A stretch of DNA of 32,000 bases, taken from contig NC_005070.1 in NCBI RefSeq assembly GCF_000195975.1, forward strand, positions 330,001 to 362,000, given 5' to 3'. This DNA comes from Parasynechococcus marenigrum WH 8102. GTDB lineage: Bacteria > Cyanobacteriota > Cyanobacteriia > PCC-6307 > Cyanobiaceae. Shown here piece after piece: positions 10,858 to 25,059 of this stretch (position 1 is the stretch's first letter; every line of letters starts with the position of its first letter). A program made the translations under genes and the position numbers. The notes under the pieces were generated by a model. That model saw only the letters and a program-made list of their open reading frames with translations. It was not told the DNA's origin and did no database searches.

Positions 10858-12033
10858 TCAACGGATCCCGTAGTTCAGCCAGCGGCAATCGATACCGCCA
10901 TTGCTCACGGGGATGCGACGGCTGGCCTTAAGCCGTAAGGCACCAGTGAGGGAAGCGTTGCCGCTGAGCAACCACAGCTGCCAGCCTGATGCTTGCTCGC
11001 GCACGAAGGATCCAAGCAATCGGTAGAGCTGTTCGAGATCGTCTTCGCTACCGACGCGGTGGCCGTAGGGCGGATTGCACACCAGCAGCCCTGGCCCTGG
11101 AGGGAGTGTCTGCTGCTCAAAGCTGCCGGAATGAATGGAGATCAGTCCGTCAAGACCGGCGGCTCGGATGTTGTCGCGGGCCTGATCTGCGATCAATGGA
11201 TCCTGCTCATATCCCACGACGGGGGCCAGATCAAGGTCGGAGCGACGGCGTTGGCGAGCCCTGGCGTGTTCGCGCTCCCAAAGCTCACGATCAAAGTCGG
11301 CCCAGCCTTCCAATCCGAACTGTCGACCGAGACCTGGAGCCTGTTGCAGGGCCATCGTGACGGCTTCGATCAACAGAATTCCGCTGCCACAGAAAGGGTC
11401 CACCAGCGGCATCCGACCATCCCAGCCCGTGAGTTGAATCAGCCCAGCAGCCAGGTTCTCCTTCAACGGTGCGGCTCCCATGGCAGCGCGGTAGCCCCGC
11501 CGGTGAAGGCTGACGCCACTGCCATCCAGGCTCAGGACCGCACCACCACGGTTCAGGTGGAGATGCAGAGCCAGGTCTGGATGAGCCAGGTCGATCGACG
11601 AACGCTCTCCCCAAAGCTCCCGTTGCAGATCCACCAGAGTATTCTTCACCTGCAGCGCGGAGTAGTGGCTGTGGTTCAACCCTGGCGCTGTTCCGGTCAC
11701 GTCCACTCGGAAGCTCATCGAGGGATGCAGCCACTGCTCCCAATTCAGCGCGTTGCTGATGCCGTCGTAAAGATCAGCCCGGCCCTGACAGGGAAAAACC
11801 GCCATCTCCCTCAGCAGGCGGAACGGCAGTCGAGCTTGTAGGTGCAGCCGATAGAGGCAGGCCATGTCGGCCTGAAACGCTGCTGCCCGGCGCAGGGGCT
11901 GGACTCCATGGGCCCCCAAAGCGACTAGTTCGTCGCAGCCCAGCGTTTCCAGCCCCTGGGGCAGCACCGCCACGCCATTGAGACGGTTCCCTCGACCCAA
12001 GACCGTTGTGCTCCAGGTCACCACTGCTGTCAC
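10858..12033 (-). CDS. THUMP-domain class I SAM-dependent RNA (RlmL/RlmK-like) methyltransferase
   Basis: The 391-aa ORF has an N-terminal THUMP-like region, SAM-binding DPFCGSGILLIEA and the catalytic LLVCNPPYG motif. Confidence 0.8.
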   Translation of the reverse strand: MTAVVTWSTTVLGRGNRLNGVAVLPQGLETLGCDELVALGAHGVQPLRRAAAFQADMACLYRLHLQARLPFRLLREMAVFPCQGRADLYDGISNALNWEQWLHPSMSFRVDVTGTAPGLNHSHYSALQVKNTLVDLQRELWGERSSIDLAHPDLALHLHLNRGGAVLSLDGSGVSLHRRGYRAAMGAAPLKENLAAGLIQLTGWDGRMPLVDPFCGSGILLIEAVTMALQQAPGLGRQFGLEGWADFDRELWEREHARARQRRRSDLDLAPVVGYEQDPLIADQARDNIRAAGLDGLISIHSGSFEQQTLPPGPGLLVCNPPYGHRVGSEDDLEQLYRLLGSFVREQASGWQLWLLSGNASLTGALRLKASRRIPVSNGGIDCRWLNYGIR

Positions 12034-12039
12034 AATGAC

Positions 12040-12324
12040 AGGGTCCGGTTCACCGGACTAGGTGATCCACACCAGTGTTTCGGACAGCGGTTCGATTCCG
12101 CTCAGCTCCATTCACCCTTCCACAAGGGGCTGCAATGGTTTCGACGGGGCATGAGGAGGGTGACTGAAGCCTGCTCGGTGAGAGCAAACCCGTAACTGCG
12201 AACAACATCGTTCGTTTCTCCCGTCACGCAGCCCCTGTTGCTGCCTGACCCTTAGGGGAGATGGGGTGAAGTCAGCCTTATCACCCAAATGACTCATGGG
12301 GGCTGGAAGGCCCCTCAAACCATT
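12040..12324 (+). ncRNA. ssrA: Two-piece (circularly permuted) tmRNA gene
   Basis: The T-arm GCGG-TTCGATT-CCGC and the acceptor 3' strand CAGCTCC plus A (12103-12110) lie UPSTREAM of the 5' end GGGGCTG (12126-12132). These pair as a 7-bp acceptor stem with the G3:U wobble. The tag ORF at 12198-12248 reads GCG AAC AAC ATC GTT CGT TTC TCC CGT CAC GCA GCC CCT GTT GCT GCC TGA, giving ANNIVRFSRHAAPVAA*. AATGGTTT (12134-12141) can pair with AAACCATT (12317-12324). The outer boundaries are approximate, within about 20 nt. Confidence 0.85.
12271..12324 (+). repeat. tmRNA-proximal att-like direct repeat (copy 1), equal to the 3' end of the tmRNA coding piece
   Basis: gtcagccttatcacccaaatgactcatgggggctggaaggcccctcaaaccatt matches 24550-24603 at about 46 of 54 positions by hand alignment. 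This includes a perfect 19-nt core, acccaaatgactcatgggg. Confidence 0.85.
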
Positions 12325-12836
12325 TCACCGCAGGGGAAGACGGCATTACGCCACTTCCCAAAAATCGCGGTGATGCCATTCCTGATGCCAATATCCCGCC
12401 TGTCTTGGCGGGTATGGATAAGGCGGAGGAAAGCGGCCAGTTCGCAGTGGTGGTTGGCTGCGTCGCCCAGCTCAACAAGATGATGGCTCTAGGTGCAGAC
12501 CAGAAGGGTTTCCGTGGTCATTCGACGCACTACAACCGGCGCTAAAAAGGCATCAGCACAATTGTCCTTACCGGTGTTTCAACGCCTGCTTCCGCTGGTG
12601 CCGTTGTTCATGCTTCTTTTTGGTATCAATTAAGCCAATTGCTTTTGTTCTGTAGCTAATTTTACTCTAGCCTTGTTTTCTATATAGCTAGCACTAATCA
12701 ATTGCTTAATAAAAGCCAAAATACGTTAATCTAATTCGTAGCAATTATTGATAAAGCAATCAATTTGTATTGGTATCCATAATTTTATGGACAACTATTT
12801 TTGATCGATCAATGTATATCCAACGGATCAACTCCG

Positions 12837-13142
12837 ATGCTGAGCACTAACACAAGACTAAAGCTCCAAGAAATCCTCACTCGTTTATCCAAAAACGAGC
12901 TGGTTAGTCTTGACGAGAGAATCCTTATTCAAAAGTATGCAGATAGGAATTCAACAGTTTGGCACTGGTTGCGGAAAGCAAGGTCAATTCAGGCTATGGG
13001 CCACTTAGATCAGCAATCTGTTGGCGGTTTTATGCAGCAGATGAATCTTCCAGGACAGACAACCGAGGACCATTTCAATGGTTCGCAAGATGATTTAGGT
13101 GAATGGTTTCAAGGATCCCCACAATGGGTACGTAGAAGCTGA
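12837..13142 (+). CDS. Hypothetical protein
   Basis: ATG-started 101-aa version of tracked ORF 12801..13142. It is low-GC with plausible codon usage, and no family was recognised. Confidence 0.4.
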   Translation: MLSTNTRLKLQEILTRLSKNELVSLDERILIQKYADRNSTVWHWLRKARSIQAMGHLDQQSVGGFMQQMNLPGQTTEDHFNGSQDDLGEWFQGSPQWVRRS

Positions 13143-13314
13143 AATCACAATCAAAACCTTATGCATGCACGACTACGAAATTAATACAAGCAATTCTTGC
13201 CGTAATTTAGTTTGCGCTGACTGCCTCAACTCAGATTCGGAAGGGAGGGGCCCTGAACCGTTATGGCGATCGACTTTGGTCAGCAAGTTGGGTTGCGTCT
13301 TGCTGGCGGTGCGC

Positions 13315-13929
13315 TCATCTGAGTGATTCGCAAGCTTCTCCATCACCGTCACCATCGAGGTATCGGTGTCCTTTAGTCAAGAGTTGTTGAGCGCGACTCC
13401 AGGAGCCAATGTCCTTGCAGCGGTATTTCCTACTGCTGCTGGAGTTGGTTATACTGCTCCCTCCTCCCTTGCGGTAGTCCCAAGGACGTGTGATTCCCGA
13501 TCGTCCGACAGACCAAATGCCAATACCCCGACGCTTCGCTTCATCCTCAATCCCCAAGTATTTCTGAGCATCGCATTTACGGAGATACTTCCTGTAAGCA
13601 AATGCTTGCCCAGCCCCCACCATCAGTTTGTTCACATTTCCTTGGTAGTTGATTAATTCAGCCACGACCCGCCCGTGCCGGTCTGTTGTCTGAACTCTCA
13701 GAGTGACTTGAGAGCCGATGGGAGTCAGCTGCTTCAGTAGTTCCGTTGATCTCGCTCCCCAGGGTTGTTGGGATCTCTCCGGCGCATCAATGCAAGCAAG
13801 GCGAACCGTAATTTTTTTGTTGCCTTCAGACACTCGTATAGTGTCGCCGTCCCCGACAGAAACCACAGTTGCAGCGTTCACGTTTGTCGTAAGGCAAGCT
13901 GCCAGCAGCAGTGCGGTGGCTGCTTTCAT
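13315..13929 (-). CDS. Secreted thermonuclease (SNase-like) with C-terminal Excalibur calcium-binding domain
   Basis: It has a signal peptide (MKAATALLLAACLTTNVNA), the SNase motif VVSVGDGDTIRV...VRLACIDAPE and RHGRVVAE. The C-terminal CKDIGSWSRAQQLL...DGDGDGEACE matches the Excalibur DxDxDGxxCE signature. Confidence 0.85.
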   Translation of the reverse strand: MKAATALLLAACLTTNVNAATVVSVGDGDTIRVSEGNKKITVRLACIDAPERSQQPWGARSTELLKQLTPIGSQVTLRVQTTDRHGRVVAELINYQGNVNKLMVGAGQAFAYRKYLRKCDAQKYLGIEDEAKRRGIGIWSVGRSGITRPWDYRKGGGSSITNSSSSRKYRCKDIGSWSRAQQLLTKGHRYLDGDGDGEACESLR

Positions 13930-14276
13930 CTTTTCAGCACGTGGTTATAGGCCAAGGATGGCAGAGTCTTTGGAGGTGCCTCAAGTTTGTAAACCGAATA
14001 AGGATGGTTATAGGGATCAATCCGGTATGGCGTTCCAAATGGGTCATCGCAGAGGTCAGGTCTGGGAAGACGTCCAGATACTATTTCGTTTGCTTCAGTC
14101 AGATGGTGTCGGTTATTTGCAGTAGCCCTTAGTAGCGAAATGATATTAAAAAAGGGTACGACTTTGAAAGTCAGCCCCCTTTTTTGTTGATTGCTAGGGC
14201 ACCCCTCGCATTAGTATCTTAGTACGGATAGTTCTTGTTTTCGGGTTGTTTCTTATGGGGAGTTAATCTCTTATGA

Positions 14277-14507
14277 ATGATTTCCCCCGAGCTGCGGAAC
14301 GTGGCAAGCATTCTTGCTTTAATTCATCGGCGCTACCCCGACGCATTACCCGACGCATTACCCGACGTATTGCCGTTGTTCGCCGGGATCGTGCTCATAA
14401 CCCACCGCGAACTGATCGCTCACCTGCTGAACACGGAACCTGACTGGCCATGGCAAAAGCCAACACAGAAGCCACTGCTGAGCGAGTCGATCACCTCCAG
14501 GGAATGA
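14277..14507 (+). CDS. Hypothetical small protein containing YPDALPDALPDVLP repeat (doubtful)
   Basis: The 76-aa ORF overlaps the next gene by 58 nt and contains the 12-bp tandem repeat. Coding status is uncertain. Confidence 0.2.
   Translation: MISPELRNVASILALIHRRYPDALPDALPDVLPLFAGIVLITHRELIAHLLNTEPDWPWQKPTQKPLLSESITSRE
14337..14372. repeat. Tandem 12-bp repeat x3 (cccgacgcatta, cccgacgcatta, cccgacgtattg)
   Basis: Read directly from the sequence. It is in frame with ORF 14277..14507, encoding (P)DAL x3. Confidence 0.85.
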
Positions 14508-14815
14508 TCCTGGCCGGTGAGACCAACACCGCTTGTCTCATATATGCGCGACAAACATGGGGGGTCTCAAGGTCACAGGGCTACAGGCTGATTAAGCGGG
14601 CTTGGCGTCAGATCCATGACGACATCGAAGGCCCCGACCTCAAACGGCAAGAGATGTTGGCTTGGTGCGTCCAGACCTTGATTGAGACGGCTGGTCAGGC
14701 CAAGGCGCAGCGCAACCCGGGTGCTGTTGTTGCTGCAATCCGCCAACTCGATTGGATGTGCGGGCTGGGGATCCACTCATCAGCCGGGCACCGAGTCCAC
14801 CGAACGAGGCTGTGA
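14450..14815 (+). CDS. HTH DNA-binding protein, small-terminase (TerS)-like architecture
   Basis: The 121-aa ORF has the N-terminal HTH ARQTWGVSRSQGYRLIKRA. Its C-terminal helix NPGAVVAAIRQLDWMCGLG resembles the ...AL..L.K..GL end of phage small terminases. A protein of the same architecture lies in element 2 (27664..28044). Confidence 0.5.
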   Translation: MAKANTEATAERVDHLQGMILAGETNTACLIYARQTWGVSRSQGYRLIKRAWRQIHDDIEGPDLKRQEMLAWCVQTLIETAGQAKAQRNPGAVVAAIRQLDWMCGLGIHSSAGHRVHRTRL

Positions 14816-15005
14816 CGTAACTGAGGTTGTGTTGACAGAGGTGGCCGGCGCCGCAGAGGGCTTTTTAGCCTTTTTTTGGTCAGATCCTTTGCAGCGCAGA
14901 TGATTTGCACCGGGGACCTTTGCTCGCGGGTTTAGAGGTACTTTTTCGCTCAGAACGACTGCAGTGCAGTGGACATGAACCGGCCAGCAAGACAAACAGG
15001 ATCAA

Positions 15006-15290
15006 ATGCATTGCTCTGCGGGCGATCTCACCCTGCCGCCGGGAACTGTGCTTGTCGGCGAGCTGGGTCTGGGCGGACAGCTCAGACCTGTCGGTCAGCT
15101 GGAGTTACGCCTGCAGGAGGCGGCGCGGCTCGGATTCCGGCGGGCAGTGGTGCCCCGCGGCAGCGGTCTGGGTGCCTTGGCCGCCGGCTTGATCTTGCCC
15201 TCTTGGAGGCCGATAGGGTCACCGAGGCCTTTTGTGCTGGCCCTCGGCGAGGACTTGACGGATCAGAAGTAGACGTGTAGGTTCGTGTCA
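15006..15290 (+). pseudogene. radA: 3'-terminal fragment of radA/sms (Lon-like C-terminal domain), frameshifted
   Basis: The translation TVLVGELGLGGQLRPVGQLELRLQEAARLGFRRAVVPRGSG matches the conserved RadA C-terminus (GEVGLxGEIRPV...RxxEAxKLGFxxAIVP). The expected tail LDLALLEADRVTEAF continues in another frame (ORF 14969..15280). No N-terminal 300+ aa is present. Confidence 0.7.
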
Positions 15291-15296
15291 TACCAA

Positions 15297-15362
15297 GCGG
15301 TTTGCCCATGTAAGTGGGTCGGAACAAACTCGGAACAGAGCCCGGAACGTGACACGGAACAG
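15297..15362 (+). repeat. GGAACA-rich direct repeat R1 (left flank of low-GC cassette)
   Basis: gcggtttgcccatgtaagtgggtcggaacaaactcggaacagagcccggaacgtgacacggaacag matches 16526-16591 at about 47 of 66 positions by hand. This includes the identical core tgggtcggaacaaac. It contains four GGAAC(A) copies spaced 10-13 bp apart. Confidence 0.75.
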
Positions 15363-15481
15363 ATCCTATTAAGTTTTGTTACATCTTTTTTAGATCCCGT
15401 TACGGTTTTTTTGTAAAAATTGCAAGCCCCGAAAAGGCTCTAAAATCGAAAGTTTTCAGAATCCTGCACGACAAGCAAGAA

Positions 15482-16312
15482 ATGTTCTTCTTTCTATTTG
15501 CCCCTAAGTTTTCAGGCTCAACAGTGATGAGCCAAGTCATTGCAAACTCTGTTAACGGCTACTTACCGTCATTCACAAACAACGAAGGTCAAATGGTCCC
15601 TGCTGTCAAAAAAATCATCTTTGCTCAAGATCGCTGGGATCCAAACGTTGATTACAAGTGGGACCCGATCAAAAGCACATGGCTTTCACTACTTCATAAT
15701 TCGCAAAAAGATATTTTCATCGAAGCATCACCTCCAAATATCATGAGACTTGAGTCGATCAAGAGAAATTTTTCTGAAGACATGACAGGAGTAATCTCTA
15801 TTTCATCTCCGTACATGCAGATCACTTCAGCAATAAAAAAGAAATACCACAACATGGTTGAAAACAAAAAGTTGCGCTCGAGAGACCAGATTCCCGAGAA
15901 GTTGATTCGCAAAGCAACCAACAGCTGGGTCCTCATGGCCAAAGCACAACGCAACAATGTCAAGTCAAATCCATCCATGCCATTGGTGACGTATGAGCAG
16001 TTCTGCAAGAATCCCCAAAAACTAATCAAAGCTTTCTGCAATCAAGCACAGATTCAAACAAAAAGCTATAAACCACAAAAGATCGGCGGAAAAAAATTCA
16101 CAGGAATTACAGGAATCATGGACATGACATGCAAGAATCTTTCGTTCTTGTCGCTCAAGGAGATCGAAATATTAACAAGAAACCTCAAGCGTCACCGCAG
16201 TTTACTTCGCTTTTTCGGCTACCAATTGCTAACCACCCAAGACGTTACGGCGATGTACGAAAGACATATGCCTCTTGTAATTGATGGGATGCATTCCCGC
16301 TTGCATCGATAA
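15482..16312 (+). CDS. Sulfotransferase-like protein (low-GC cargo gene)
   Basis: The 276-aa AT-rich ORF begins FFLFAPKFSGSTVMSQ, resembling the sulfotransferase PAPS-binding loop (PKxGTT/ST). The function call rests on this motif only. Confidence 0.5.
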   Translation: MFFFLFAPKFSGSTVMSQVIANSVNGYLPSFTNNEGQMVPAVKKIIFAQDRWDPNVDYKWDPIKSTWLSLLHNSQKDIFIEASPPNIMRLESIKRNFSEDMTGVISISSPYMQITSAIKKKYHNMVENKKLRSRDQIPEKLIRKATNSWVLMAKAQRNNVKSNPSMPLVTYEQFCKNPQKLIKAFCNQAQIQTKSYKPQKIGGKKFTGITGIMDMTCKNLSFLSLKEIEILTRNLKRHRSLLRFFGYQLLTTQDVTAMYERHMPLVIDGMHSRLHR

Positions 16313-16322
16313 ACCCAAAAAA

Positions 16323-16348
16323 AACTCCTCACGCAAGCGAGAGGAGTT
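16323..16348. terminator. Hairpin aactcctc-N10-gaggagtt flanked by an A-run on the left (T-run on the minus strand)
   Basis: An 8-bp perfect stem sits 11 nt after the stop of 15482..16312. The U-tract is only on the minus-strand reading, so it may be bidirectional or minus-directed. Confidence 0.4.
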
Positions 16349-16525
16349 AAAAACAGAACAGCAGCCAAGTGAAATAATTCAGGCGGTGCGCAAGTTTCCC
16401 CTGAATTTCACGCTTTTATAATAAGTAAGTATTGCCTAAGCGTATCTCGTCAAATCGCGCTCTAAGACTCGATTCTTGGAAGTTACATTTGTCAGAAGTA
16501 GACATCAACGTTCTTGTCATCCTAA

Positions 16526-16591
16526 CGGGTTTGCTCTTGTGGATGGGTCGGAACAAACCTGGAACAGGGGTGTGCTCTGGACACGGAACAA
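16526..16591 (+). repeat. GGAACA-rich direct repeat R2 (right flank of low-GC cassette)
   Basis: cgggtttgctcttgtggatgggtcggaacaaacctggaacaggggtgtgctctggacacggaacaa is the partner of R1. Confidence 0.75.
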
Positions 16592-16836
16592 TGCTTGGCC
16601 GCGGCTCCAGACTGGCAATAGAGACTTGCTTTTGTGTTTTGTATTAGAGCAAATGCAGCAGAAAGCCTTTCAGTTGATTCAGAGCCATCGCGCTCCTCGA
16701 CTGCGGTTCAAGAACCTTCGCTGAGAACGGCGTGATTGACTGTCAGCAAGAGAGGAAGGCCGCCCTTCCCGGTGGAAAGACGGCCTAAATTGCTCGCATG
16801 AGCGTGGTTTAACAAACACTGGAACTGTTTGCCAAG

Positions 16837-17112
16837 TTAACTTTGTTTATTGGCCATAAACTCTCTGTCTGTTTCGGTCATCGTATCTTCATCATCATGA
16901 AAAAAGCATCCATAAAGTAGATTCTCTATTCTTGCAACGTCCATATCGAGATCTGCTACTTCTTGCCATAGATAGATTTCCCGAAATCTGTTTCCAAGAT
17001 AGAATTGCGCTTCGGAAATGTCTCTTGCTATTTTAAAATAAGCAGACTGTTCCTTGGCTTTTGGCGACACATAGGTCAGGATTTTCCTCCCGATTGACTG
17101 CATGGTTGTCAT
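16837..17112 (-). CDS. Hypothetical protein
   Basis: 91-aa AT-rich ORF; no family recognised. Confidence 0.4.
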   Translation of the reverse strand: MTTMQSIGRKILTYVSPKAKEQSAYFKIARDISEAQFYLGNRFREIYLWQEVADLDMDVARIENLLYGCFFHDDEDTMTETDREFMANKQS

Positions 17113-17220
17113 AGTTCGATCCAGAACCTATAAAGATTTTAGTAGCAAGCACTACAAAATCAATGGGTCGTAATGCCTGTTCCGAGGTCTCCATTGCCCG
17201 GCCCAAAGCCTGTGCGGTGA

Positions 17221-17424
17221 TCAGATGAGGTCGTAAGCCCTCAATACCTGAACACGGATGCCCCCAAGCTTTTGCCATGCCTCCAGTGCTTCCTTTTTTG
17301 ACTGAAAGGGAAGCCAGTCGTCTTCTTCTAAGCGGCGTTTGATATGAGCCGCGACTCTTTGAGCTACAACCGCGTCGCTTTTAAAGCGAACACTTATGTT
17401 TCGGCCGTTGATTTTCAACTGCAT
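17221..17424 (-). CDS. Hypothetical small protein
   Basis: Internal-Met version (MQLKINGRNISVRF...) of tracked ORF 17221..17586. The N-terminal extension is Ser/Arg-rich and looks non-coding. Confidence 0.3.
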   Translation of the reverse strand: MQLKINGRNISVRFKSDAVVAQRVAAHIKRRLEEDDWLPFQSKKEALEAWQKLGGIRVQVLRAYDLI

Positions 17425-17527
17425 CAGCGAATCAAGAGTGTCGTCAGTTTGGCGCTGACAACCGCTGTCGCTGCATCTGTTCTGACGGAAGTTGGATGAA
17501 CTCAGGAGTCCGGTTGAGATGGAGGAG

Positions 17528-17749
17528 CTAGAGCCCTCGAGCCTGACGAAAGGCCGTTGAGTATGGGAAGAGAAATCCCGTCTCAAGGGCGCCTAACTCT
17601 TGCTCTGCCGAATAAAGGCTCCTTGTAACGCGGCAATGGTTTTCGCCATCGCAAACCAAGAAATGGCCATCTTCGGTCCTTTGGATAGTGGCGCCATGCG
17701 GCGTCTTAACTATGAGGTTAGCTTTCGCCATGCTGGGGTGAAGCGACAT
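17528..17749 (-). CDS. Hypothetical small protein
   Basis: The 73-aa ORF competes with antisense ORF 17600..17941 (+). The strand cannot be resolved by eye. Confidence 0.25.
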   Translation of the reverse strand: MSLHPSMAKANLIVKTPHGATIQRTEDGHFLVCDGENHCRVTRSLYSAEQELGALETGFLFPYSTAFRQARGL

Positions 17750-17897
17750 CCTTGTTATGGCCCTGGTCTTACCTGGGTGGGCGTAGCTGACAATATTGAT
17801 CTGGAAATCAGCACGCTCCCATACCCCCTTCAGGAGCTTCCGGCGCTGGCAGTCGTAACTAGCCTTACGGAGCCAAACTGGTTCCAGGCAAAAAAGC

Positions 17898-18713
17898 TTG
17901 ATGTCTGGTCAGTACCCACCAGGAAGCGAAGGATGGCGTGACGCTCTGGACTACCCGCCAGAAACCAGGGCAGATGTATCGGAAAATCGCCGCCGGTATC
18001 TCAAGGAGGCAAAAAAATTTCGAAAGGAAAGCGATGCTTGGGAGGAAGGAAGGATCGTTGGAGTTTTCGAAAGTCAGCTCTCTGATGGTGGTTCAACCTC
18101 TAAACAGTCCAAGGAGCCGACTCCTGAAGATGTTCGCTTGGCAAAAGAGCGAGCTGAGTTCAAGGAAATGATGCAGGCCAAGCGTGAGGCCAAGCAGGTA
18201 GCTCGCGCGGCGGATGAAAAAGCGGAGTTTCGCGAGTTCATGCGCGAATGGATAGCGACCAAGTGGGATGGTGAAACTCCTGATCACCTCAAAAAAGCAC
18301 TGCCCACAGGGGATCCAAAGGATCTCGGGATGCTCATCAGCGAATGGCACTCTTACGGCGGCAGGAAGAACAACCACGCCAGTGATGCCACTTTGACTCG
18401 GTATCTTTACTTCCCTCCCGCTGACCAGAGCCCAGTAGTAGACACGCCTCCAGCGGGGTTCGTTTACTTCGTCAGGAACGAGGATCTCTTCAAAATCGGG
18501 ATTACAGAAAACATGCTGCGGAGGCTGAAGCAACTTGCGCCGGATGAGCTTCTAAATGTCGTTCGCTGCTCCAACTTCCAGGAGGTCGAACGGGAGCTGC
18601 ATCGACGTTTCAAGGATGTTCGCTTGCCTCAAACGGAGTACTTCCGGCTGAGTGATCAGCAGGTGCAGGAGGTCCACCAACTCATGGTGAAGTTGGCGGA
18701 GTTCCAGTCGTAA
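17898..18713 (+). CDS. T5orf172/MUG113 (GIY-YIG-superfamily) domain protein
   Basis: The C-terminal GFVYFVRNEDLFKIGITENMLRRLKQL...ELHRRF...EYFRL matches the T5orf172 pattern (GxVYhh....hKIGxT....RhxxL...E..hH..F....EWF). The N-terminal half is charged and coiled. Confidence 0.7.
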   Translation: MMSGQYPPGSEGWRDALDYPPETRADVSENRRRYLKEAKKFRKESDAWEEGRIVGVFESQLSDGGSTSKQSKEPTPEDVRLAKERAEFKEMMQAKREAKQVARAADEKAEFREFMREWIATKWDGETPDHLKKALPTGDPKDLGMLISEWHSYGGRKNNHASDATLTRYLYFPPADQSPVVDTPPAGFVYFVRNEDLFKIGITENMLRRLKQLAPDELLNVVRCSNFQEVERELHRRFKDVRLPQTEYFRLSDQQVQEVHQLMVKLAEFQS

Positions 18714-18747
18714 CGGGAATTGCGTAATGAAAAAGCCCCAATATTTA

Positions 18748-18771
18748 CCGTGTTCCGGAACACGGTTTTTT
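18748..18771 (+). terminator. Rho-independent terminator
   Basis: The perfect palindrome ccgtgttcc/ggaacacgg is followed by tttttt, 35 nt after the stop of 17898..18713. Confidence 0.8.
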
Positions 18772-18886
18772 GATCCCTTTGGTCTTCCGACTTCATTTCT
18801 AGGGGCCTTTGACGTTCTTCTGAAGTGATGGTCTGGTTGATTTCAGTCACACCAGGATTTTTGGAAAACGATCTCTAGGGACTGTT

Positions 18887-20005
18887 TTAATTTGCCGCCG
18901 GTGGAAGTGAGTTCAGCCCGCTATTAACTGCCTGCTCCAATCGTCTGGGGTTGTAAAGCGCCCCAACCGAATCGAACATCGCCAGCATCCTGGTGATCGC
19001 ATCAACATGGCCGGTGGCTTCTGAGCTGGCAGCTCTGTTTTCTGATTCCCACTGCTTGTGGCCGGAGTGGCTTAACCACTGCCACAGCTCATCACGTATC
19101 AATGAACGGGCAGCAGTTGGATTGGCGATCAGCGCATTGGCTTCTACCTTTCGCGGCCCGTACGTCTCCAGGTAGTCCTGCACATACGGGAACTTGCGGT
19201 GCTTGTGATTTGGGTTGGCCAAGTCACCACCACTGCTGGTTTCAAGACCGTCGATCCACACCAGACCGGCATTGTCCACAAACTCGGCGTTTAGCCCAAA
19301 GCGCACGATTCGACCGTCGTCAGCCATGTCTTCCAGGGAATCGTCCCAGTTCAGAACCTTGGCCAATGGCCTCAGGTTTTCAGCGATTGCGTCGGACATC
19401 TTGACCCCCATCGGATCAAGGTCGCCGCAATAAAGAACCACCGGTTCCAGTCCCTGCAACTCGGCCCAATCACATTCCTGAATCAGCGCCACCCTGCTGT
19501 TCACGTCAGCCTGGCCTTTGCTGGCAAAACGGCGGATTGCGTTGGGCAATTCCGGCTCGAACAGCTTGATCAGGTCACGTTTTTCAGTCCAGATGATCGG
19601 GAAGTACTCCTGATGCTTCCAGTAGCTGGCAGGCCAGTAATGCTTGGCTTGATCCAGCGATTCCCGCAGCTGACGGTTGATGTATTCCCGCGGGGTTTCT
19701 TCTTTGTCGTAGACGTCAGAACCAGACAGAGCACGGGTTGAATCCGCACCGACAAGTTCAAACGGAATCAGCCCTTCTTTGCGGCGATCAGCAAGCCACT
19801 TACCAGACCAAGTGAAATCGCCTTTAGTGATGATGCCTTCTGATTCCAGGGCATACAGCCAGGAGCGAGCAACAGGAGCAAAACCGAGACGCGCAACGTA
19901 TTGGCGCATCCAAGCCACTACTTCATGCATATCTGCATGAAATTGCAGTCTTTTGGCTTCACTAATCCTGCCGCTGCCCATTCGGGGTAGTGCGGTGATG
20001 ATCAC
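18887..20005 (-). CDS. Topo-VI-A/Spo11-like Toprim protein (stand-alone, mini-A or JetD-like)
   Basis: The 372-aa ORF has IIWTEKRDLIKLF (Toprim Glu, cf. vVEKdavF), VLYCGDLDPMGVKM (DxDPxG metal site) and KVEANAL (cf. ElEAL). The N-terminal ARSWLYALESEG offers a candidate RxxxY catalytic Tyr in a winged-helix-like segment. Confidence 0.55.
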   Translation of the reverse strand: MIITALPRMGSGRISEAKRLQFHADMHEVVAWMRQYVARLGFAPVARSWLYALESEGIITKGDFTWSGKWLADRRKEGLIPFELVGADSTRALSGSDVYDKEETPREYINRQLRESLDQAKHYWPASYWKHQEYFPIIWTEKRDLIKLFEPELPNAIRRFASKGQADVNSRVALIQECDWAELQGLEPVVLYCGDLDPMGVKMSDAIAENLRPLAKVLNWDDSLEDMADDGRIVRFGLNAEFVDNAGLVWIDGLETSSGGDLANPNHKHRKFPYVQDYLETYGPRKVEANALIANPTAARSLIRDELWQWLSHSGHKQWESENRAASSEATGHVDAITRMLAMFDSVGALYNPRRLEQAVNSGLNSLPPAAN

Positions 20006-20101
20006 GGGTGAAGTTGCAAAAAATGGATTACGTAGTCACCCCCAACACCCAAGAATCCAGAACTGGATAAATGGGTGAGAGGGGAATAAGGGGAGGGGTT
20101 A

Positions 20102-22072
20102 TTAGTCCGGGCGACTCGGGTTCCAGAAGGCCCTAACCCACTTGCCGGTGCCGATGCGGCGTTGGTCATAGAGCCACCCGTGATGGGTCATCAACTCCCG
20201 GATGCGTTGGGCGTTGAAGTTGTTCTGGCGTTCCGGACCGATCTCCAGGAAGTCGTAGATCTGCTGGCGCTGGACGTAAGCCGCAGTGCCCTGGCGTTTA
20301 AGCCAGTCGCCGATCAGATCCGACCACGGGTCCACGAGGTCGTAGTCGCTGTTCCTGGTGAGGATGCGATCCATCTCCTCATCGGTGCTCCACGTCTGGA
20401 GACCGTTCTGGAACTCCCGCAGTGCCTTGGTCCAGATGGCGTCTCTGGCTTCGGCGATCCGCTGAACGGGCAGCTTTTCGTCACCGACGGGGATCATCAC
20501 GAACCTGGTGGAGCCGGTGTTGTCCGTCAGCGGCGACTTGTTCGTCGTCGCGAAGAACACGGACCGCCGGTGGATCGGTTCAGTGCCTGGGGCGTACTTA
20601 CGGCGCACTAAGTCCACCCGCCTACTCAGGAAGGCTTTGAGCTTTTCCTGTTGAGTCCGGCGGGTGATGCCGTTCAGCTCGCCCAGCTCCATGCCCCACA
20701 CGAACTGGAGTCGGGTCACGTCGTCGATGTCCAGCGCGGAGGAAAGTCCGTCGCCGTAGAACTCGTGGCCGAACAGGCTCCTGCCTGCCTCCGTCTTCCC
20801 GATCCCCTGGCCGCCAAGAATGCACGGGGTCTGACGTTGCTGGCAGCCGGGGACTTTGACCCTGGCCACGGCGCTGGTCAGATACCGAGGCATGAATGCG
20901 TCGGCGATGGGGTCGTCGACGTTGAACAGGAAGCGACCCAGATGATTCCAGTCCTCATCAGGCAGGGGGTCCGCCGAGAGGTTGGACAGGTAGACATCCA
21001 CGGGATCGAACTGATGCTCGTGAGCCAGCTCAATAAACGCATCGCGAGCGATCTTCTGGCTCCACCGGTTGGGGCTCGGTGGCATCGACAGGCGGAGGTA
21101 GAGGTTCTCCGTCTGGGTCGCCGTGGCCTCTGCACCGTTGATGTGGATGCCGCGGCTTCGCAGGTTCAGTCGGGGTACATCGCCCAGCTGCTCAGCCATC
21201 AATTTGAGGGCGTCGCCTGCCTGGACTTTCTTTTGACGTAAATCCTGTTGCTCCACATGGATCCGGAACACCGCGGCGTTGCCAACGGCTGTCTCGCGAT
21301 CACCGCAGTAGGCCCAGGTGACCCCTCCCTTAACGACCGTCTCGCCCTTGGCCATCACCGGTGGCGACCAACGCTTGCCGTAGTGGCAGAGGATCACCTT
21401 CCCGTCGGCGGATTGGCGGCAATCAGGTTCTGTGCGCCCACAGATCGGGCAAGGGATGGCGTCATGCCAATCCCCGACCTGTTTATGGGATCGCCTGTTT
21501 TCCGTCTTGGCCATGGCCTTTTGCCATAACGCCCACCAGTCATCGGGGATGGGGGCGATCCGCTCCGGATTGCGCTGGGTCCAGACGTATTCGCCGCCAG
21601 ATTGGCGGTGCTCGCCGGCAACGATGCACTGGCCTGTGGACCAGAAGATCTCGACCTTCTCGTTCCCGTCGGCCTTCACCTCGCATTTGCCTGGAAGGTG
21701 TTCCCACCGTTCCTTTGGCACTCTGAAGAAGAGCTTGTAGCGGTTGGAATCGGTATTCCGACCAACCATCCAGGTGACCGGCTGGTGCTCGATCCCCATC
21801 CTGATCAGCTCGCTGATGGCACTGAGCCCATCGATGTCGAAGCAGACGATGCCGCCTGCGTCAGGGCCTAGGCGTGTGCCGACACACAGGACCTTTGGTC
21901 CCATTGCCGCGATCTCATCGGGAGTGAACGACATGTGTTGCCAGCCCTTCGCACCGAAGCCAGTGGAGGGATCAATGGGCGCCTTGAACTTTTCCCCTGC
22001 ACCACAGGGGATGAGAGGGAGGCCAGTGAGCTGCGGGAGCAGCTTCTGCCTCCAGTTGCTGACTGGTTTCAT
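20102..22072 (-). CDS. Bifunctional primase-polymerase (prim-pol) / zinc ribbon / VirE-D5-type P-loop helicase
   Basis: The 656-aa ORF has the N-terminal prim-pol pattern LPLIPCGAGEKFKAP...GWQ...VGTRLG...IVCFDIDG. Its central part is CPICGRTEPDCRQSADGKVILCHYG. Its C-terminal part has Walker A GGQGIGKTE and WGMELGEL, typical of VirE-family ATPases. Confidence 0.85.
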   Translation of the reverse strand: MKPVSNWRQKLLPQLTGLPLIPCGAGEKFKAPIDPSTGFGAKGWQHMSFTPDEIAAMGPKVLCVGTRLGPDAGGIVCFDIDGLSAISELIRMGIEHQPVTWMVGRNTDSNRYKLFFRVPKERWEHLPGKCEVKADGNEKVEIFWSTGQCIVAGEHRQSGGEYVWTQRNPERIAPIPDDWWALWQKAMAKTENRRSHKQVGDWHDAIPCPICGRTEPDCRQSADGKVILCHYGKRWSPPVMAKGETVVKGGVTWAYCGDRETAVGNAAVFRIHVEQQDLRQKKVQAGDALKLMAEQLGDVPRLNLRSRGIHINGAEATATQTENLYLRLSMPPSPNRWSQKIARDAFIELAHEHQFDPVDVYLSNLSADPLPDEDWNHLGRFLFNVDDPIADAFMPRYLTSAVARVKVPGCQQRQTPCILGGQGIGKTEAGRSLFGHEFYGDGLSSALDIDDVTRLQFVWGMELGELNGITRRTQQEKLKAFLSRRVDLVRRKYAPGTEPIHRRSVFFATTNKSPLTDNTGSTRFVMIPVGDEKLPVQRIAEARDAIWTKALREFQNGLQTWSTDEEMDRILTRNSDYDLVDPWSDLIGDWLKRQGTAAYVQRQQIYDFLEIGPERQNNFNAQRIRELMTHHGWLYDQRRIGTGKWVRAFWNPSRPD

Positions 22073-22088
22073 GCGAGGGGGGTGCTCC

Positions 22089-22352
22089 TCAAACCGTCAG
22101 CGGCGCGGTGTCTCTGCCGAAGGTTTCAACCTCCGCCGAAGACTCCCGCTTGTGGTTCCACAGGCTTTGGATTGCCTGCTCCTTGTTCCATCTGACCTTG
22201 CGAGTGCCGAGGCCGATGAACTGCCAATCCCGGTGCTGTTGGAAAGGACCGTTGGGGTCCCGCCGCATCCGAAGAATTGTCTCTGGACTGAGCTGAGCCG
22301 CCTGGGCGACTTCAGCGGTTGTGGACGCAATTTCCATTTCGAGGGCACGCAC
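22089..22352 (-). CDS. Small HTH protein, excisionase/AlpA-like regulator
   Basis: It has the HTH TTAEVAQAAQLSPETILRM and the start may be ATG at 22337. It is clearly homologous to 31316..31528 in element 2 (shared ..DW......R..L.WN.E.A......W.........VETF). It sits immediately upstream of the primase gene. Confidence 0.55.
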   Translation of the reverse strand: MRALEMEIASTTAEVAQAAQLSPETILRMRRDPNGPFQQHRDWQFIGLGTRKVRWNKEQAIQSLWNHKRESSAEVETFGRDTAPLTV

Positions 22353-22354
22353 CC

Positions 22355-22615
22355 TCAGGTGCGCGGGGTGCCATCCCAGTTCTCATGGTGCAGAAGTTCC
22401 GCCTGGAGCTTGGCCATGAAGTTGGCCTTTTTGTCCCGGCGTCCCTGATCAGGATTGCCTTTGTCAAGCGTTCCAATAGAGAAGCCCTCGTCTAGTCGCA
22501 CCCGCGCGCGGGTGAAATAGCGAACAAGACGTTCCAGGTGCTGACGTTCATGACCCTCAGGCCAATGAGTCAAGCGACCAGGACGAATCGGAATTGGGCG
22601 ATCAGGACCTTGCAT
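22355..22615 (-). CDS. Hypothetical protein
   Basis: Met-36 version of tracked ORF 22355..22720. Its stop lies 2 nt from the start of the next gene, consistent with an operon. Confidence 0.35.
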   Translation of the reverse strand: MQGPDRPIPIRPGRLTHWPEGHERQHLERLVRYFTRARVRLDEGFSIGTLDKGNPDQGRRDKKANFMAKLQAELLHHENWDGTPRT

Positions 22616-22812
22616 CCAGCAGGGATGACGTGTTCGGTTTGATCCCCCGGAGGCAGACGCGCTGCTGCTGTTCCGACATCTCGAAGGCAACGTAACACCA
22701 CTGATCGGGATCGTCAGCAAATTTCCCCACCGATGCCACTACGGATGGTGTCAGCAGCTGGAAGTGTCTAGAGCAGTTGGGAGAGGTTGCAAGGATTGAA
22801 TAAATCTATGCC

Positions 22813-22862
22813 GATAATGATTATCATTCTTTTGTGCCAATAATGAGAATTATTCTTATACT
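22813..22862 (+). promoter_or_regulatory. Two Fur/Zur-type boxes overlapping a candidate promoter of the metallothionein gene
   Basis: Box 1 is GATAATGATTATCATT (22813-22828), with the perfect core AATGA-TTA-TCATT. Box 2 is AATAATGAGAATTATTC (22839-22855). A candidate -35 ttgtgc lies at 22832-22837 and a -10 tatact at 22857-22862. Confidence 0.55.
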
Positions 22863-22915
22863 TTAGGCCGCTTATTGGTCTAGTGTTGTGGCTGAAAATT
22901 GCCTGGCCACATCAA

Positions 22916-23086
22916 ATGTCTACAGCAATCAAATGTGCATGCCCTAAGTGCACCTGTATGGTCGCAGAAGAGAGCGCAATTGTTCTTCAAGGTAAGTTCT
23001 TTTGCTCGACGTCCTGTTCAACAGGGCATGCCAATAATGAGCCCTGTCATGGCGAAGGCTCTTGTGGATGTAAGTGCGGAGAGTAA
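22916..23086 (+). CDS. bmtA: Bacterial metallothionein (SmtA/BmtA family)
   Basis: The 56-aa protein is MSTAIKCACPKCTCMVAEESAIVLQGKFFCSTSCSTGHANNEPCHGEGSCGCKCGE. Its Cys/His spacing follows SmtA (KCACxxCxCxV....AI...G..yCS..C..GH......C......C.C). Confidence 0.85.
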   Translation: MSTAIKCACPKCTCMVAEESAIVLQGKFFCSTSCSTGHANNEPCHGEGSCGCKCGE

Positions 23087-23144
23087 TCGGGGCGGTGGCC
23101 AGGCATGGCGGTGCTTTAAGCCCGCCTTCAACGTTGGGGTGGTG

Positions 23145-24425: not shown

Positions 24426-24429
24426 TGGA

Positions 24430-24453
24430 GTGATGCCAAAAGTGATGCCAAAA
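24430..24453. repeat. Perfect tandem 12-mer x2 (gtgatgccaaaa) abutting the integrase start
   Basis: Read directly at 24430-24441 and 24442-24453. It lies 5 nt upstream of the int start on the minus strand. Confidence 0.85.
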
Positions 24454-24549
24454 AGATCCTATTCAGTCGTTCTCTGTCGTCAAGGGTTGCCAACAGACCA
24501 GGGCTCTGACTATGTTCTGCCCGTGATCGTTGTTTCCGTAAGGAAAGCA

Positions 24550-24603
24550 GTCAGTTGTATTACCCAAATGACTCATGGGGCCTGGAAGGGCCCTTCAACC
24601 ATT
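24550..24603 (+). repeat. Distal att-like direct repeat (copy 2): an orphan copy of the tmRNA 3' end
   Basis: gtcagttgtattacccaaatgactcatggggcctggaagggcccttcaaccatt is the partner of 12271-12324. No tmRNA body lies upstream of it. Confidence 0.85.
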
Positions 24604-24891
24604 GCCAATACTTGAGTCACGGATGCGACTAGGCCGAGATTTTGGAGCTGCGACCCAGGGTGTGACCCGAAGGTCGTCGTTTTAGGGCTAAGTGACCCAT
24701 GCGGGGTCACAGAGGACTGCTGCGGAAACCTGCTGAATCTTGGAGAAGTTGGTAGAAGTCAAGTGAGCACAAGGGTAGAAGCCTTTCTTTTGTTATTGCA
24801 AGACAATAAAATAAGGGCGGTGCATCACTCCGCCCCTAGGAATCACCAACATCTATAGATGAGAGATCTGCTCCTTTAGTTTAGTTCAACG

Positions 24892-25059
24892 ATGCCTAAA
24901 CGTACACTTCCTGTCTATGTGGAAATGGTGCTTTCTCAAATACTGCAAGAGTCAGCATTAGAGAAGCAATCAATTGATGATGATTGTCCCTCAGTCCCGC
25001 AGGGCTGCCCTCTTTCCACCCCCCAAAGCCGTCTTACTGCAGTTGAGGTTAACCAATGA
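24892..25059 (+). CDS. Hypothetical small protein (55 aa, not in ORF track)
   Basis: The ATG at 24892 opens MPKRTLPVYVEMVLSQILQES.... Its TGA overlaps the ATG of the next ORF (ATGA at 25056-25059), suggesting translational coupling. Confidence 0.35.
   Translation: MPKRTLPVYVEMVLSQILQESALEKQSIDDDCPSVPQGCPLSTPQSRLTAVEVNQ

What the first reader, a model, noticed from the sequence alone, without database searches (positions are those of the whole stretch)
12271..12324. Imperfect att repeats carry a compensatory base-pair swap that preserves a hairpin
Copy 1 reads GGGGC-TGGAAG-GCCCC and copy 2 (24550-24603) reads GGGCC-TGGAAG-GGCCC. The G-to-C and C-to-G differences are the two partners of one base pair, so both copies keep a 5-bp stem. 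Other mismatches cluster at the two ends, flanking a perfect 19-nt core that is a likely crossover zone. This implies one copy derives from a tmRNA allele of a different host lineage. It also implies the resident tmRNA 3' end may now be chimeric and element-supplied.
Basis: seen in the sequence. Interest (0 to 1): 0.65.

Follow-up and report, generated by a model that had tools for sequence, protein, structure and literature searches.

The report
Mobile element rebuilds tmRNA gene end
The two imperfect repeats are the junctions of a 12-kb mobile element inserted into the end of a cyanobacterial tmRNA gene, and the paired G/C swap is real because each repeat carries a working version of the gene's last hairpin; this is expected behaviour for such elements, not a new mechanism.

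Summary
The repeats are 12270-12324 and 24549-24603, 47/55 identical with a perfect 19-nt block. They differ at 12302:12311 (G:C) versus 24581:24590 (C:G), the two partners of one base pair.

That hairpin is the last helix of a permuted (two-piece) cyanobacterial tmRNA gene (Rfam RF01851, 315 bits). In 83 distinct resident genes it is 97.8% paired. The pair in question is its only covarying pair: C-G 63, G-C 14, A-U 4.

Between the repeats lies a 12.2-kb low-GC element. It encodes a divergent tyrosine integrase, a PrimPol/VapE primase-helicase and paired arm-type repeats at both ends.

A different host (flank about 73-77% identical, different tag peptide) carries the identical 46-nt gene end joined to the same element arm.

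Two refinements:
- Comparative data place the crossover in TATCACC (12279-12285), at the left edge of the 19-nt block.
- Copy 2 is probably not native. It is the left junction of a second tmRNA-targeting element, and a third copy lies just beyond the window.

This is a Synechococcus member of known tmRNA-site integrative elements (tycheposon-like). Interest is modest.

The parts
12027..12314 (+). Permuted (two-piece) tmRNA gene ssrA, in the order acceptor piece, intervening segment, coding piece
   Evidence: Rfam RF01851 cyano_tmRNA, 315 bits, full model 1-288. ARAGORN reports a permuted tmRNA at 12021-12339.
12198..12248 (+). Tag reading frame ANNIVRFSRHAAPVAA plus stop codon
   Evidence: ARAGORN places the coding part at 178-228 within the gene. 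The sequence was read.
12257..12294 (+). Last pseudoknot of the coding piece. Helix 1 is 12257-58 and 12260-67 with 12275-82 and 12285-86. Helix 2 is AGUCA 12270-74 with UGACU 12290-94.
   Evidence: Helix 1 is in the Rfam structure. Helix 2 is 100% paired in 84 sequences, with A-U/G-C covariation at its outer pair.
12298..12315 (+). Terminal hairpin, copy 1: GGGGGCU-GGAA-GGCCCCU. The pair 12302:12311 is G:C.
12270..12324 (+). att copy 1 (attL of element 1), forming the 3' end of the resident ssrA
   Evidence: the repeat finder family D3. The nhmmer 3'-end profile scores it at E 1.8e-17.
12279..12285 (+). Proposed strand-exchange (overlap) segment TATCACC, flanked by half-sites AGTCAGCCT (12270-78) and CAAATGACT (12286-94)
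   Evidence: Inference. The homology boundary of displaced fragments in other genomes falls at T(A/G)TC. Element copies carry a 9-bp inverted repeat around a 7-nt spacer.
12371..12390 (+). Candidate arm-type integrase sites: TGATGCCA twice, 12 nt apart, at the left end of element 1
   Evidence: 9 matches against 1.95 expected. The doublet is conserved in L138, L140 and L141.
12325..24548 (.). Element 1, a 12.2-kb integrative element of low GC (0.44-0.61, against 0.58-0.68 upstream, mostly 0.62 or higher)
13315..13929 (-). Cargo gene: secreted-type nuclease with SNase and Excalibur domains
   Evidence: Pfam PF00565 at 1.3e-17 and PF05901.
17898..18713 (+). T5orf172/MUG113-domain protein
   Evidence: Pfam.
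18887..20005 (-). Protein matching a PHROG family annotated as topoisomerase
   Evidence: phrog_6247 at 6.4e-33.
20102..22072 (-). PrimPol plus VapE/D5-like primase-helicase, the replication module
   Evidence: Pfam PF09250 and PF05272. PHROG helicase and primase families.
23145..24425 (-). Divergent tyrosine recombinase (integrase), 137 nt left of the 19-nt block of copy 2 and transcribed away from it
   Evidence: Pfam PF00589 at 4.3e-4, below its cut-off. PHROG integrase families. Invariant R246, K272, R372, H395, H400, Y404 in 14 relatives. All 10 near-full-length homologues in other loci have the same position relative to a displaced ssrA fragment.
24431..24450 (+). Candidate arm-type sites: GTGATGCCAAAA twice, at the right end of element 1
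   Evidence: Identical in L137. Changed in concert to GTGTTGCCAAAA twice in L135.
24549..24603 (+). att copy 2: attR of element 1 and probable attL of element 2. Half-site AGTCAGTTG, spacer TATTACC (24558-64), half-site CAAATGACT. Hairpin at 24577-24594 with pair 24581:24590 = C:G.
24604..32000 (.). Element 2 (cut by the window end), a second tmRNA-targeting element. It has a RepA/AAA_25-like gene at 28627-30198(-) and GTGACCC repeats at 24662, 24692 and 24704. Its integrase homologue and a third att copy lie 1.0-1.4 kb past the window end.

Best explanation
The window carries a circularly permuted (two-piece) tmRNA gene of an estuarine Synechococcus-type picocyanobacterium. A 12.2-kb integrative element has inserted into its 3' end by tyrosine-recombinase site-specific recombination.

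The element's attachment site is a copy of the last roughly 55 nt of the coding piece. It includes the 3' strand of the last pseudoknot and the terminal hairpin.

Strand exchange most likely occurs in the 7-nt TATCACC, between two inverted half-sites built on the pseudoknot strands AGTCA and TGACT. After integration, everything 3' of that point in the resident gene comes from the element (12286-12324, including the hairpin with G:C at 12302:12311). The previous 3' end is pushed 12.3 kb downstream as copy 2 (C:G at 24581:24590).

Both versions were selected as the functional end of a tmRNA gene, so both keep the stem. The difference is one instance of the natural C-G/G-C/A-U covariation at that pair.

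The locus is a tandem array. Copy 2 is also the left junction of a second, related element, and a third copy with yet another stem version lies just past the window end.

Shown directly: the repeats, the helix and its covariation, the gene content, the fact that the 3' end travels with the element arm, and the array. Inferred: the exact crossover position, the arm-site function, and current mobility.
For: - The gene and its helix are established. Searches give the repeats.
- Covariation at exactly this pair, with the hairpin 97.8% paired in 84 sequences, comes.
- The stem-arm combinations seen in 83 resident genes are almost all in register, and none combines a copy-1 5' arm with a copy-2 3' arm or the reverse.
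- Low GC between the repeats. Integrase, PrimPol/VapE and other element genes. Tyrosine-recombinase residues invariant in the family.
- L141 has a different host background: the THUMP-gene flank is 739/1006 identical and the tag has Q for H. Yet TATC..CCATT is 46/46 identical, the following element arm is 99/105 identical, and homology is lost after that.
- The end GCCCC-TCAAACCATT occurs only in junctions with this element family (window, L138, L140, L141). It is absent from the other 82 resident genes.
- Relatives of the integrase (81-84% identical) have att fragments next to the integrase that share the element-side left part but carry different hairpins.
- All 10 near-full-length homologues in other picocyanobacterial loci lie 170-251 nt left of a displaced ssrA fragment on the opposite strand, as in the window.
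- Paired arm repeats sit at both ends and changed in concert in a relative.
Against: - No empty site (attB) and no excised form (attP) was recovered. Every context of the flanking proteins either contains the element or breaks inside ssrA. The metagenome scan gave three attL junctions and one junction with another element.
- The spacer differs between the two copies (TATCACC versus TATTACC). That is awkward for a strict overlap-identity model.
- The 9-bp inverted repeat has one mismatch, and the repeat finder at seed 6 did not report it.
- Hybrid stems can still fold in a shifted register (-10.1 and -14.0 kcal/mol). Folding alone therefore does not exclude a crossover inside the loop.
- The integrase's Pfam score is below the curated cut-off.
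- The window's hairpin is not followed by a U-run, and the mature 3' end is unmapped. Where exactly the structural constraint acts is therefore not proven.
Confidence: 0.8

Rival explanations
1. The integration is as described, but the crossover lies 3' of the hairpin, for example in AACCATT at 12318-12324. The resident hairpin would then be native host sequence, and the copy-2 hairpin would be the version carried by element 1.
For: AACCATT is a 7-nt identity block shared by both copies. No attB or attP was recovered to settle the matter. Allele A is common in marine Synechococcus.
Against: - Copy 2's left part is element-type only up to TAT, and its identity to native genes starts there, as it does in more than ten other displaced fragments.
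- The unusual end GCCCC-TCAAACC is shared by junctions in a different host and continues into the shared arm.
- Close relatives of the element show different hairpins next to the same element-side sequence.
- Copy 2's 3' side continues into a second element, not into element 1.
Confidence: 0.1
2. Copy 2 is a decaying pseudo-fragment, and the apparent compensatory swap is two independent neutral substitutions that happen to fall on pairing partners.
For: There are only two copies with eight differences. Short G+C-rich stems re-pair easily, as the shifted-register folds show.
Against: The random-placement null gives P about 0.017. The same pair is the one covarying pair of this helix in 83 genes, and both versions are common natural alleles. 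A third copy also keeps the stem with a further variant.
Confidence: 0.03
3. The island was not inserted by site-specific recombination. It arrived by homologous recombination or gene conversion between diverged chromosomal segments, and the repeats are by-products of replacement at a flexible genomic island.
For: tRNA-proximal islands in picocyanobacteria are recombination hot spots. The element interiors are mosaic: L140 and L141 share only the first roughly 105 nt of the element with the window.
Against: Several features are the hallmarks of an integrase-driven event:
- precise direct repeats ending at the same position in many genomes;
- a dedicated integrase family always 137-251 nt from the displaced fragment;
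- paired arm-type repeats at both ends;
- tandem copies.
Confidence: 0.05

Closest known systems
Tycheposons of Prochlorococcus (Hackl et al., bioRxiv 10.1101/2020.12.28.424599; later published in Cell 2023, from my own knowledge)
   Same: They are tyrosine-recombinase elements flanked by a full and a partial tRNA or tmRNA gene, and the tmRNA gene is one of their seven attachment sites. They have a primase or primase-helicase replication module, with topoisomerase and endonuclease genes among the gene labels in a figure legend of that paper. They form tandem arrays and leave degenerate partial copies in islands. Integrase homologues 36-38% identical sit next to displaced ssrA fragments in Prochlorococcus single-cell genomes AG-363-O16 and AG-409-O23.
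   Different: The host here is a high-GC estuarine Synechococcus-type cell, not Prochlorococcus. The integrase was not compared with the authors' reference set. No evidence of activity was found. The allele difference between the att copies, and its mapping onto the pseudoknot and hairpin, does not appear in the passages I read.
[quoted passage not shown] Cited from my own knowledge; the paper was not held.
   Same: A tyrosine integrase recombines inside the 3' part of ssrA. The element carries a replacement 3' segment, so the gene stays intact. A displaced fragment marks the far end, and tandem arrays are common.
   Different: In a standard gene the target is the tRNA-like T-arm and acceptor 3' end. 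In this permuted gene the tRNA-like 3' end lies in the middle (about 12110). The target here is the non-tRNA-like end of the coding piece, that is, the last pseudoknot and the terminal hairpin.
tRNA-gene integration with a symmetric stem-loop as core site (Williams, Nucleic Acids Res 2002, sublocation classes; from my own knowledge, cited as ref. 29)
   Same: The proposed core uses two complementary RNA-helix strands (AGTCA and TGACT) as inverted half-sites around a 7-nt exchange segment. This is analogous to the way anticodon or T stem-loops are used.
   Different: The helix is a pseudoknot stem whose strands lie 15 nt apart in the host gene. The element extends the left half-site (AGTCAGTTG/AGTCATTTG) to leave a 7-nt spacer. 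This is inferred here, not demonstrated.
Phage-inducible chromosomal islands and other satellites with an integrase plus PrimPol
   Same: Small size (12 kb), an integrase, a PrimPol/VapE replication module, and small ORFs between them.
   Different: No packaging or capsid-redirection genes were recognised, and no helper is known.

Membership tests
Cyanobacterial permuted tmRNA (Rfam RF01851) | Score above the gathering threshold over the full model, including the terminal hairpin | tested here: met
   315 bits against a gathering score of 70, model positions 1-288. ARAGORN also calls a permuted tmRNA.
Cyanobacterial permuted tmRNA (Rfam RF01851) | Permuted order (acceptor piece before coding piece) with a tag reading frame ending in AA plus stop | tested here: met
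   Tag ANNIVRFSRHAAPVAA* at 12198-12248. The T-arm and acceptor 3' strand precede the GGGGCUG 5' strand.
Cyanobacterial permuted tmRNA (Rfam RF01851) | The terminal hairpin is present in the mature coding piece | not testable with these tools
   This needs 3'-RACE or RNA-seq. The experimental paper (Gaudin et al. 2002) was not held.
Tyrosine-integrase element inserted in the 3' end of a tRNA or tmRNA gene | Direct repeats, one forming the 3' end of the intact gene and the other a displaced fragment | tested here: met
   12270-12324 and 24549-24603. A partial Rfam hit covers copy 2.
Tyrosine-integrase element inserted in the 3' end of a tRNA or tmRNA gene | An integrase gene inside the element next to one junction, with the catalytic R..K..R..H..Y residues | tested here: met
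   Gene at 23145-24425(-). R246, K272, R372, H395/H400 and Y404 are invariant. PHROG integrase families match. The Pfam PF00589 score is below its cut-off, and the usual His of the HxxR box is replaced by Tyr369.
Tyrosine-integrase element inserted in the 3' end of a tRNA or tmRNA gene | An empty site in relatives, or an excised attP form | tested here: inconclusive
   None was found in exact-protein contexts, the metagenome pattern scan or the viral contigs. The element-borne nature of the 3' end is inferred from L141 instead.
Tyrosine-integrase element inserted in the 3' end of a tRNA or tmRNA gene | Arm-type repeats flanking the core on both arms (lambda-type integrases) | tested here: inconclusive
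   TGATGCCA doublets occur at both ends, conserved or changed in concert in relatives. Binding was not tested.
Tycheposon | Attachment at one of the reported tRNA or tmRNA sites, flanked by a full and a partial copy | tested here: met
   The site is tmRNA. The family definition was read.
Tycheposon | Integrase belongs to the tycheposon tyrosine-recombinase clade | tested here: inconclusive
   Homologues 36-38% identical lie next to ssrA fragments in Prochlorococcus single-cell genomes.
Tycheposon | Replication module (primase or helicase) and demonstrated mobility | tested here: inconclusive
   A PrimPol/VapE gene is present. Mobility cannot be tested here.
Intrinsic (Rho-independent) terminator | A G+C-rich hairpin followed directly by a U-run | tested here: not met
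   No terminator-like site occurs in 11900-12600. The tails are TCAAACCA and TTCAACCA. By contrast, 68 of 83 resident genes in relatives have at least 4 T in the 8 nt after the stem.

The most novel reading that the evidence does not exclude
In picocyanobacteria the last roughly 40 nt of tmRNA may routinely be supplied by integrative elements. This stretch comprises the 3' strand of the final pseudoknot and the terminal hairpin. If so, the alleles of this hairpin, and part of the covariation recorded for the RNA family, would be spread horizontally by elements rather than inherited with the host. Compatibility between host-encoded 5' strands and element-encoded 3' strands would then act as a host-range filter. 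One hint: A26 with C50 is never seen, while G26 with U50 occurs four times.
Probability: 0.3. Interest if true: 0.5.

Novelty: new member of a known kind. Interest (0 to 1): 0.3.

Why it matters
It gives a clean, base-pair-level example that the attachment site of a tmRNA-targeting element behaves as a functional gene fragment. Right of the crossover the element's copy keeps the RNA structure. Left of the crossover it has decayed. As a result the host expresses a chimeric tmRNA.

It also shows how integrases cope with a permuted tmRNA gene, in which the usual tRNA-like target is no longer at the gene's end. They appear to use the terminal pseudoknot and hairpin instead.

Practical consequences are modest:
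- The 3' ends of ssrA in these genomes should not be used as host phylogenetic markers.
- tmRNA alignments of picocyanobacteria mix host-derived and element-derived sequence.
- The displaced fragments give precise borders for mapping islands in Synechococcus and Cyanobium genomes.

Tried and rejected
- **Viral contigs, 19-nt block:** the only match was a chance hit inside a phage coding region.
- **Empty site through exact-protein contexts:** I looked up the flanking genes (328-aa protein, 388-aa THUMP protein, 132-aa protein). Every contig either holds the element or ends inside ssrA. The first look-up failed because I used the wrong start codon.
- **Metagenome scan for all four att combinations:** it returned three attL junctions and L139. 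L139 at first looked like the predicted attB, with the same tmRNA body and the copy-2 end. It is in fact a junction with a different RepA-type element, so I rejected it as an empty site.
- **Native flank reading of 24549-24902:** I first took its homology to the DNA just downstream of ssrA in Synechococcus AG-670-B23 as proof that copy 2 sits on native flank. I dropped this once I found GTGACCC arm repeats, a second integrase homologue and a third att copy.
- **Excluding a loop crossover by folding:** this is not decisive, because hybrid stems refold in a shifted register. The argument now rests on the absence of hybrid arm combinations in 83 genes.
- **Inverted-repeat search at seed 6:** it reported nothing. 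The 8-of-9 inverted repeat is read directly from the sequence.
- **Integrase relatives in IMG/VR:** they are distant (22-28% identical) and have no ssrA fragment. Two sit beside tRNA-Lys.
- **Literature:** the papers by Williams (2003), Gaudin et al. (2002) and Sharkady and Williams (2004) were not held.

Full report
**1. What is at the coordinates**

ARAGORN finds a permuted tmRNA gene at 12021-12339 with the tag ANNIVRFSRHAAPVAA. Rfam's cyano_tmRNA model (RF01851) matches 12027-12314 over its full length at 315 bits. The gene is circularly permuted. The T-arm and acceptor 3' strand come first (to about 12110), followed by a short intervening segment. The coding piece starts at GGGGCUG (12126).

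The 3' end of the gene is therefore not tRNA-like. It consists of a pseudoknot followed by a terminal hairpin, which is the last helix of the Rfam model (positions 273-288).

**2.

The repeat finder reports 12270-12324 and 24549-24603 as a 55-nt direct repeat at 85% identity. The 19-nt block ACCCAAATGACTCATGGGG occurs only at 12283-12301 and 24562-24580, with 0.01 expected by chance. The eight differences are at 12276-12278, 12282, 12302, 12311, 12316 and 12317.

Copy 1 has the stem GGGGGCU/GGCCCCU and copy 2 has GGGGCCU/GGGCCCU, both around a GGAA loop. The only stem differences are 12302 (G to C) and 12311 (C to G), which pair with each other. Both hairpins fold at -12.8 kcal/mol. Placing eight random substitutions in 55 nt gives a pair-preserving double change with an intact stem in about 1.7% of trials.

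**3. The helix is real and this pair is its variable pair**

A scan of one genome per species found the 19-nt block (one position left free) in 112 stretches, nearly all picocyanobacterial: Cyanobium, Synechococcus and Prochlorococcus. I aligned 83 distinct resident 3' regions together with copy 2 and counted pairs.
- The terminal hairpin is 97.8% paired.
- The columns that correspond to 12302:12311 read C-G in 63 sequences, G-C in 14 and A-U in 4. No other pair of the hairpin changes on both sides.
- The second pseudoknot helix, AGUCA (12270-74) with UGACU (12290-94), is 100% paired and shows A-U/G-C covariation at its outer pair.
- The stem-arm combinations in resident genes are in register. 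No gene joins a copy-1-type 5' arm to a copy-2-type 3' arm or the reverse.

Both versions in the window are thus ordinary functional alleles. The copy-2 type dominates in freshwater and brackish Cyanobium. The copy-1 type is common in marine Synechococcus such as WH7803.

In 68 of 83 resident genes the stem is followed by at least 4 T in 8 nt, so in most lineages the hairpin looks like the gene's terminator as well. The window's copies lack a U-run, and no terminator-like site is called.

**4. What lies between the repeats**

GC falls from 0.58-0.68 upstream (mostly 0.62 or higher) to 0.44-0.61 between the repeats. The interval encodes:
- a 426-aa protein at 23145-24425(-), with weak Pfam (4.3e-4, below cut-off) and PHROG integrase matches;
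- a PrimPol/VapE primase-helicase at 20102-22072(-);
- a protein matching a topoisomerase PHROG at 18887-20005(-);
- a T5orf172 protein at 17898-18713(+);
- an SNase/Excalibur nuclease at 13315-13929(-).

In an alignment with 13 relatives, R246, K272, R372, H395, H400 and Y404 are invariant. This fits a tyrosine recombinase in which the usual His of the HxxR box is replaced by Tyr369.

The family is small: 68 clusters at 90% identity in 5.8 billion sequences. In the other picocyanobacterial loci, all 10 near-full-length homologues lie 170-251 nt to the left of a displaced ssrA fragment on the opposite strand. These include two Prochlorococcus single-cell genomes. The window shows the same arrangement, with a 137-nt gap to the 19-nt block. 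This integrase family is therefore dedicated to this site.

TGATGCCA doublets 12 nt apart sit inside both ends of the element, at 12371/12383 and 24431/24443. The window has 9 matches against 1.95 expected. They are identical in a relative with an 84%-identical integrase (L137). In a relative with an 81%-identical integrase (L135), both copies have changed in concert to TGTTGCCA. That is the behaviour expected of arm-type integrase sites.

**5. Which side is element-supplied**

The window comes from a 453-kb estuary-metagenome contig. The nearest species representatives are only about 77% identical in the flanks. No empty site turned up in any context of the flanking proteins.

A metagenome scan for all four possible att combinations returned three further left junctions: L138, L140 and L141. 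L141 is a different host. Its THUMP-gene flank is 739/1006 identical, its tmRNA body differs, and its tag has Q where the window has H. Yet from TATC to CCATT it is 46/46 identical to the window, and the next 105 nt, which hold the TGATGCCA doublet, are 99/105 identical. After that, homology is lost.

The end GCCCC-TCAAACCATT occurs only in these junctions. It is absent from the other 82 resident genes, whose marine versions read GCCCCC-TCAACCATT. Conversely, the fragments next to closely related integrases (L135, L137) share the element-side left part, GTTTCCGTAAGGAAAGC.GTCA.TTGTATC-ACCCAAATGACT. To its right they carry different hairpins.

The simplest reading is that the sequence right of the crossover in copy 1, hairpin included, travels with the element.

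**6. Where the crossover is**

Copy 1 is host-like through CCTTATC. Copy 2 reads TTGTATT there. In more than ten displaced fragments from other genomes, similarity to the native gene begins at T(A/G)TC, immediately before ACCC.

In the element-side copies, AGTCAGTTG or AGTCATTTG is an 8-of-9 inverted repeat of CAAATGACT around a 7-nt spacer TAT(C/T)ACC. In the window these are 24549-57, 24558-64 and 24565-73, and the same arrangement is seen in L135 and L137. This is the usual geometry of a tyrosine-recombinase core site.

This is an inference. The spacer differs at one position between the two copies, and the repeat finder at seed 6 does not report the imperfect inverted repeat.

**7. Copy 2 is not simply the native end**

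A profile of the 3' region finds a third copy 1.35 kb beyond the window end, at L123 18296-18352. Its stem is GGGGGGU/GUCCCCC.

Just before it lies a 410-aa protein that is 29% identical to the 426-aa integrase (E 1e-36). Its position and orientation relative to copy 3 match those of the 426-aa integrase relative to copy 2.

GTGACCC repeats occur just after copy 2 at 24662, 24692 and 24704, and again just before copy 3.

So 24604 to about 33350 is a second element of the same general type. It carries a RepA/AAA_25-like gene at 28627-30198(-). The right half of copy 2 was probably supplied by this second element when it integrated earlier.

L139 points the same way. It has the window's tmRNA body joined to the copy-2 end, followed by yet another RepA-type element. 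After copy 3 comes a XerC-like integrase, an arrangement also seen in L135 and L137.

The locus is a tandem array, and each member brought its own structure-preserving version of the gene's end. The truly native end was not reached.

**8. Comparison with known systems**

Integration into the 3' end of tRNA and tmRNA genes, with the element restoring the gene, is textbook biology. ssrA is a favoured site, and tandem arrays there are described (Williams 2003, from my own knowledge; Nawrocki et al. 2025, state that islands frequently use the tmRNA gene).

In Prochlorococcus, tycheposons are reported to use the tmRNA gene as one of seven sites. They are flanked by full and partial copies and pile up in arrays. 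The window's element matches that description in site, recombinase type and replication module, and it has homologues in Prochlorococcus single-cell genomes. I did not compare it with the authors' reference set.

Two things stand out, without being new in kind:
- The target in this permuted gene is a pseudoknot and hairpin rather than a tRNA-like arm.
- The two junction copies happen to carry different natural alleles of the covarying pair.

In most other genomes where both a resident and a displaced copy were seen, the hairpins are the same.

**9. Verdict**

It needs two corrections: the crossover position, and the nature of copy 2. The phenomenon follows from known biology, so I rate it a new member of a known kind, of modest interest.

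The most novel reading not excluded is that element-borne 3' ends drive the distribution of hairpin alleles in picocyanobacterial tmRNA and limit element host range through RNA-structure compatibility.

Noticed in passing
window 15263-15361 and 16492-16590: A 99-nt direct repeat (75% identical). Each copy ends in a cluster of about four (C/T)GGAAC motifs spaced 11-12 nt apart. The two copies flank an unannotated 276-aa ORF (15482-16312). They look like iterons and could be a replication origin of element 1.
   Followed up: no
window 15360-15374 versus 24453-24467: AGATCCTATT(A/C)AGT follows the GGAAC cluster inside the element and also follows the TGATGCCA arm repeats at the right junction. 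It may be a vestige of an older element boundary inside element 1.
   Followed up: no
window 24604-32000 and L123 16903-18352 (1.0-1.4 kb beyond the window end): A second tmRNA-targeting element. It has a RepA/AAA_25-like gene (28627-30198, minus strand), GTGACCC repeats at both ends, a 410-aa integrase homologue (29% identical) and a third att copy whose stem is GGGGGGU/GUCCCCC.
   Followed up: partly
L123 18317-19228; L135 19384-20343 and 8702-9772; L137 6200-7096: A XerC-like integrase of about 300-356 aa repeatedly sits directly after an ssrA 3' end or fragment, reading away from it. This suggests a third class of element at the same site.
   Followed up: no
window 24508-24548: Left of the crossover, the element's copy keeps degenerate similarity to the tmRNA (UAAGGA...AGUCAG). 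Rfam gives a partial hit of 28 bits covering model positions 196-288. This fits an attachment site that began as a longer captured gene fragment and decayed where no RNA function is selected.
   Followed up: partly
L139 100-175: CGGGATAAATC occurs three times just after an ssrA end, upstream of a 553-aa RepA-like gene. These are probably arm-type sites of yet another element at this site.
   Followed up: no
alignment A1, columns 26 and 50 (window 12270 and 12294): The outer pair of the pseudoknot helix is G-C in 61 sequences, A-U in 19 and G-U in 4. It is never A with C. The G-U cases could be evolutionary intermediates, or host-element hybrids tolerated as wobble pairs.
   Followed up: no
window 1759-1841: A tRNA-Leu(GAG) gene with no sign of an adjacent island in this window.
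   Followed up: no
L122 1-181 and L134 1-132: Several long assemblies of the same population end inside ssrA. This is probably an assembly break caused by the repeated 3' end or by variation in island content among cells.
   Followed up: partly
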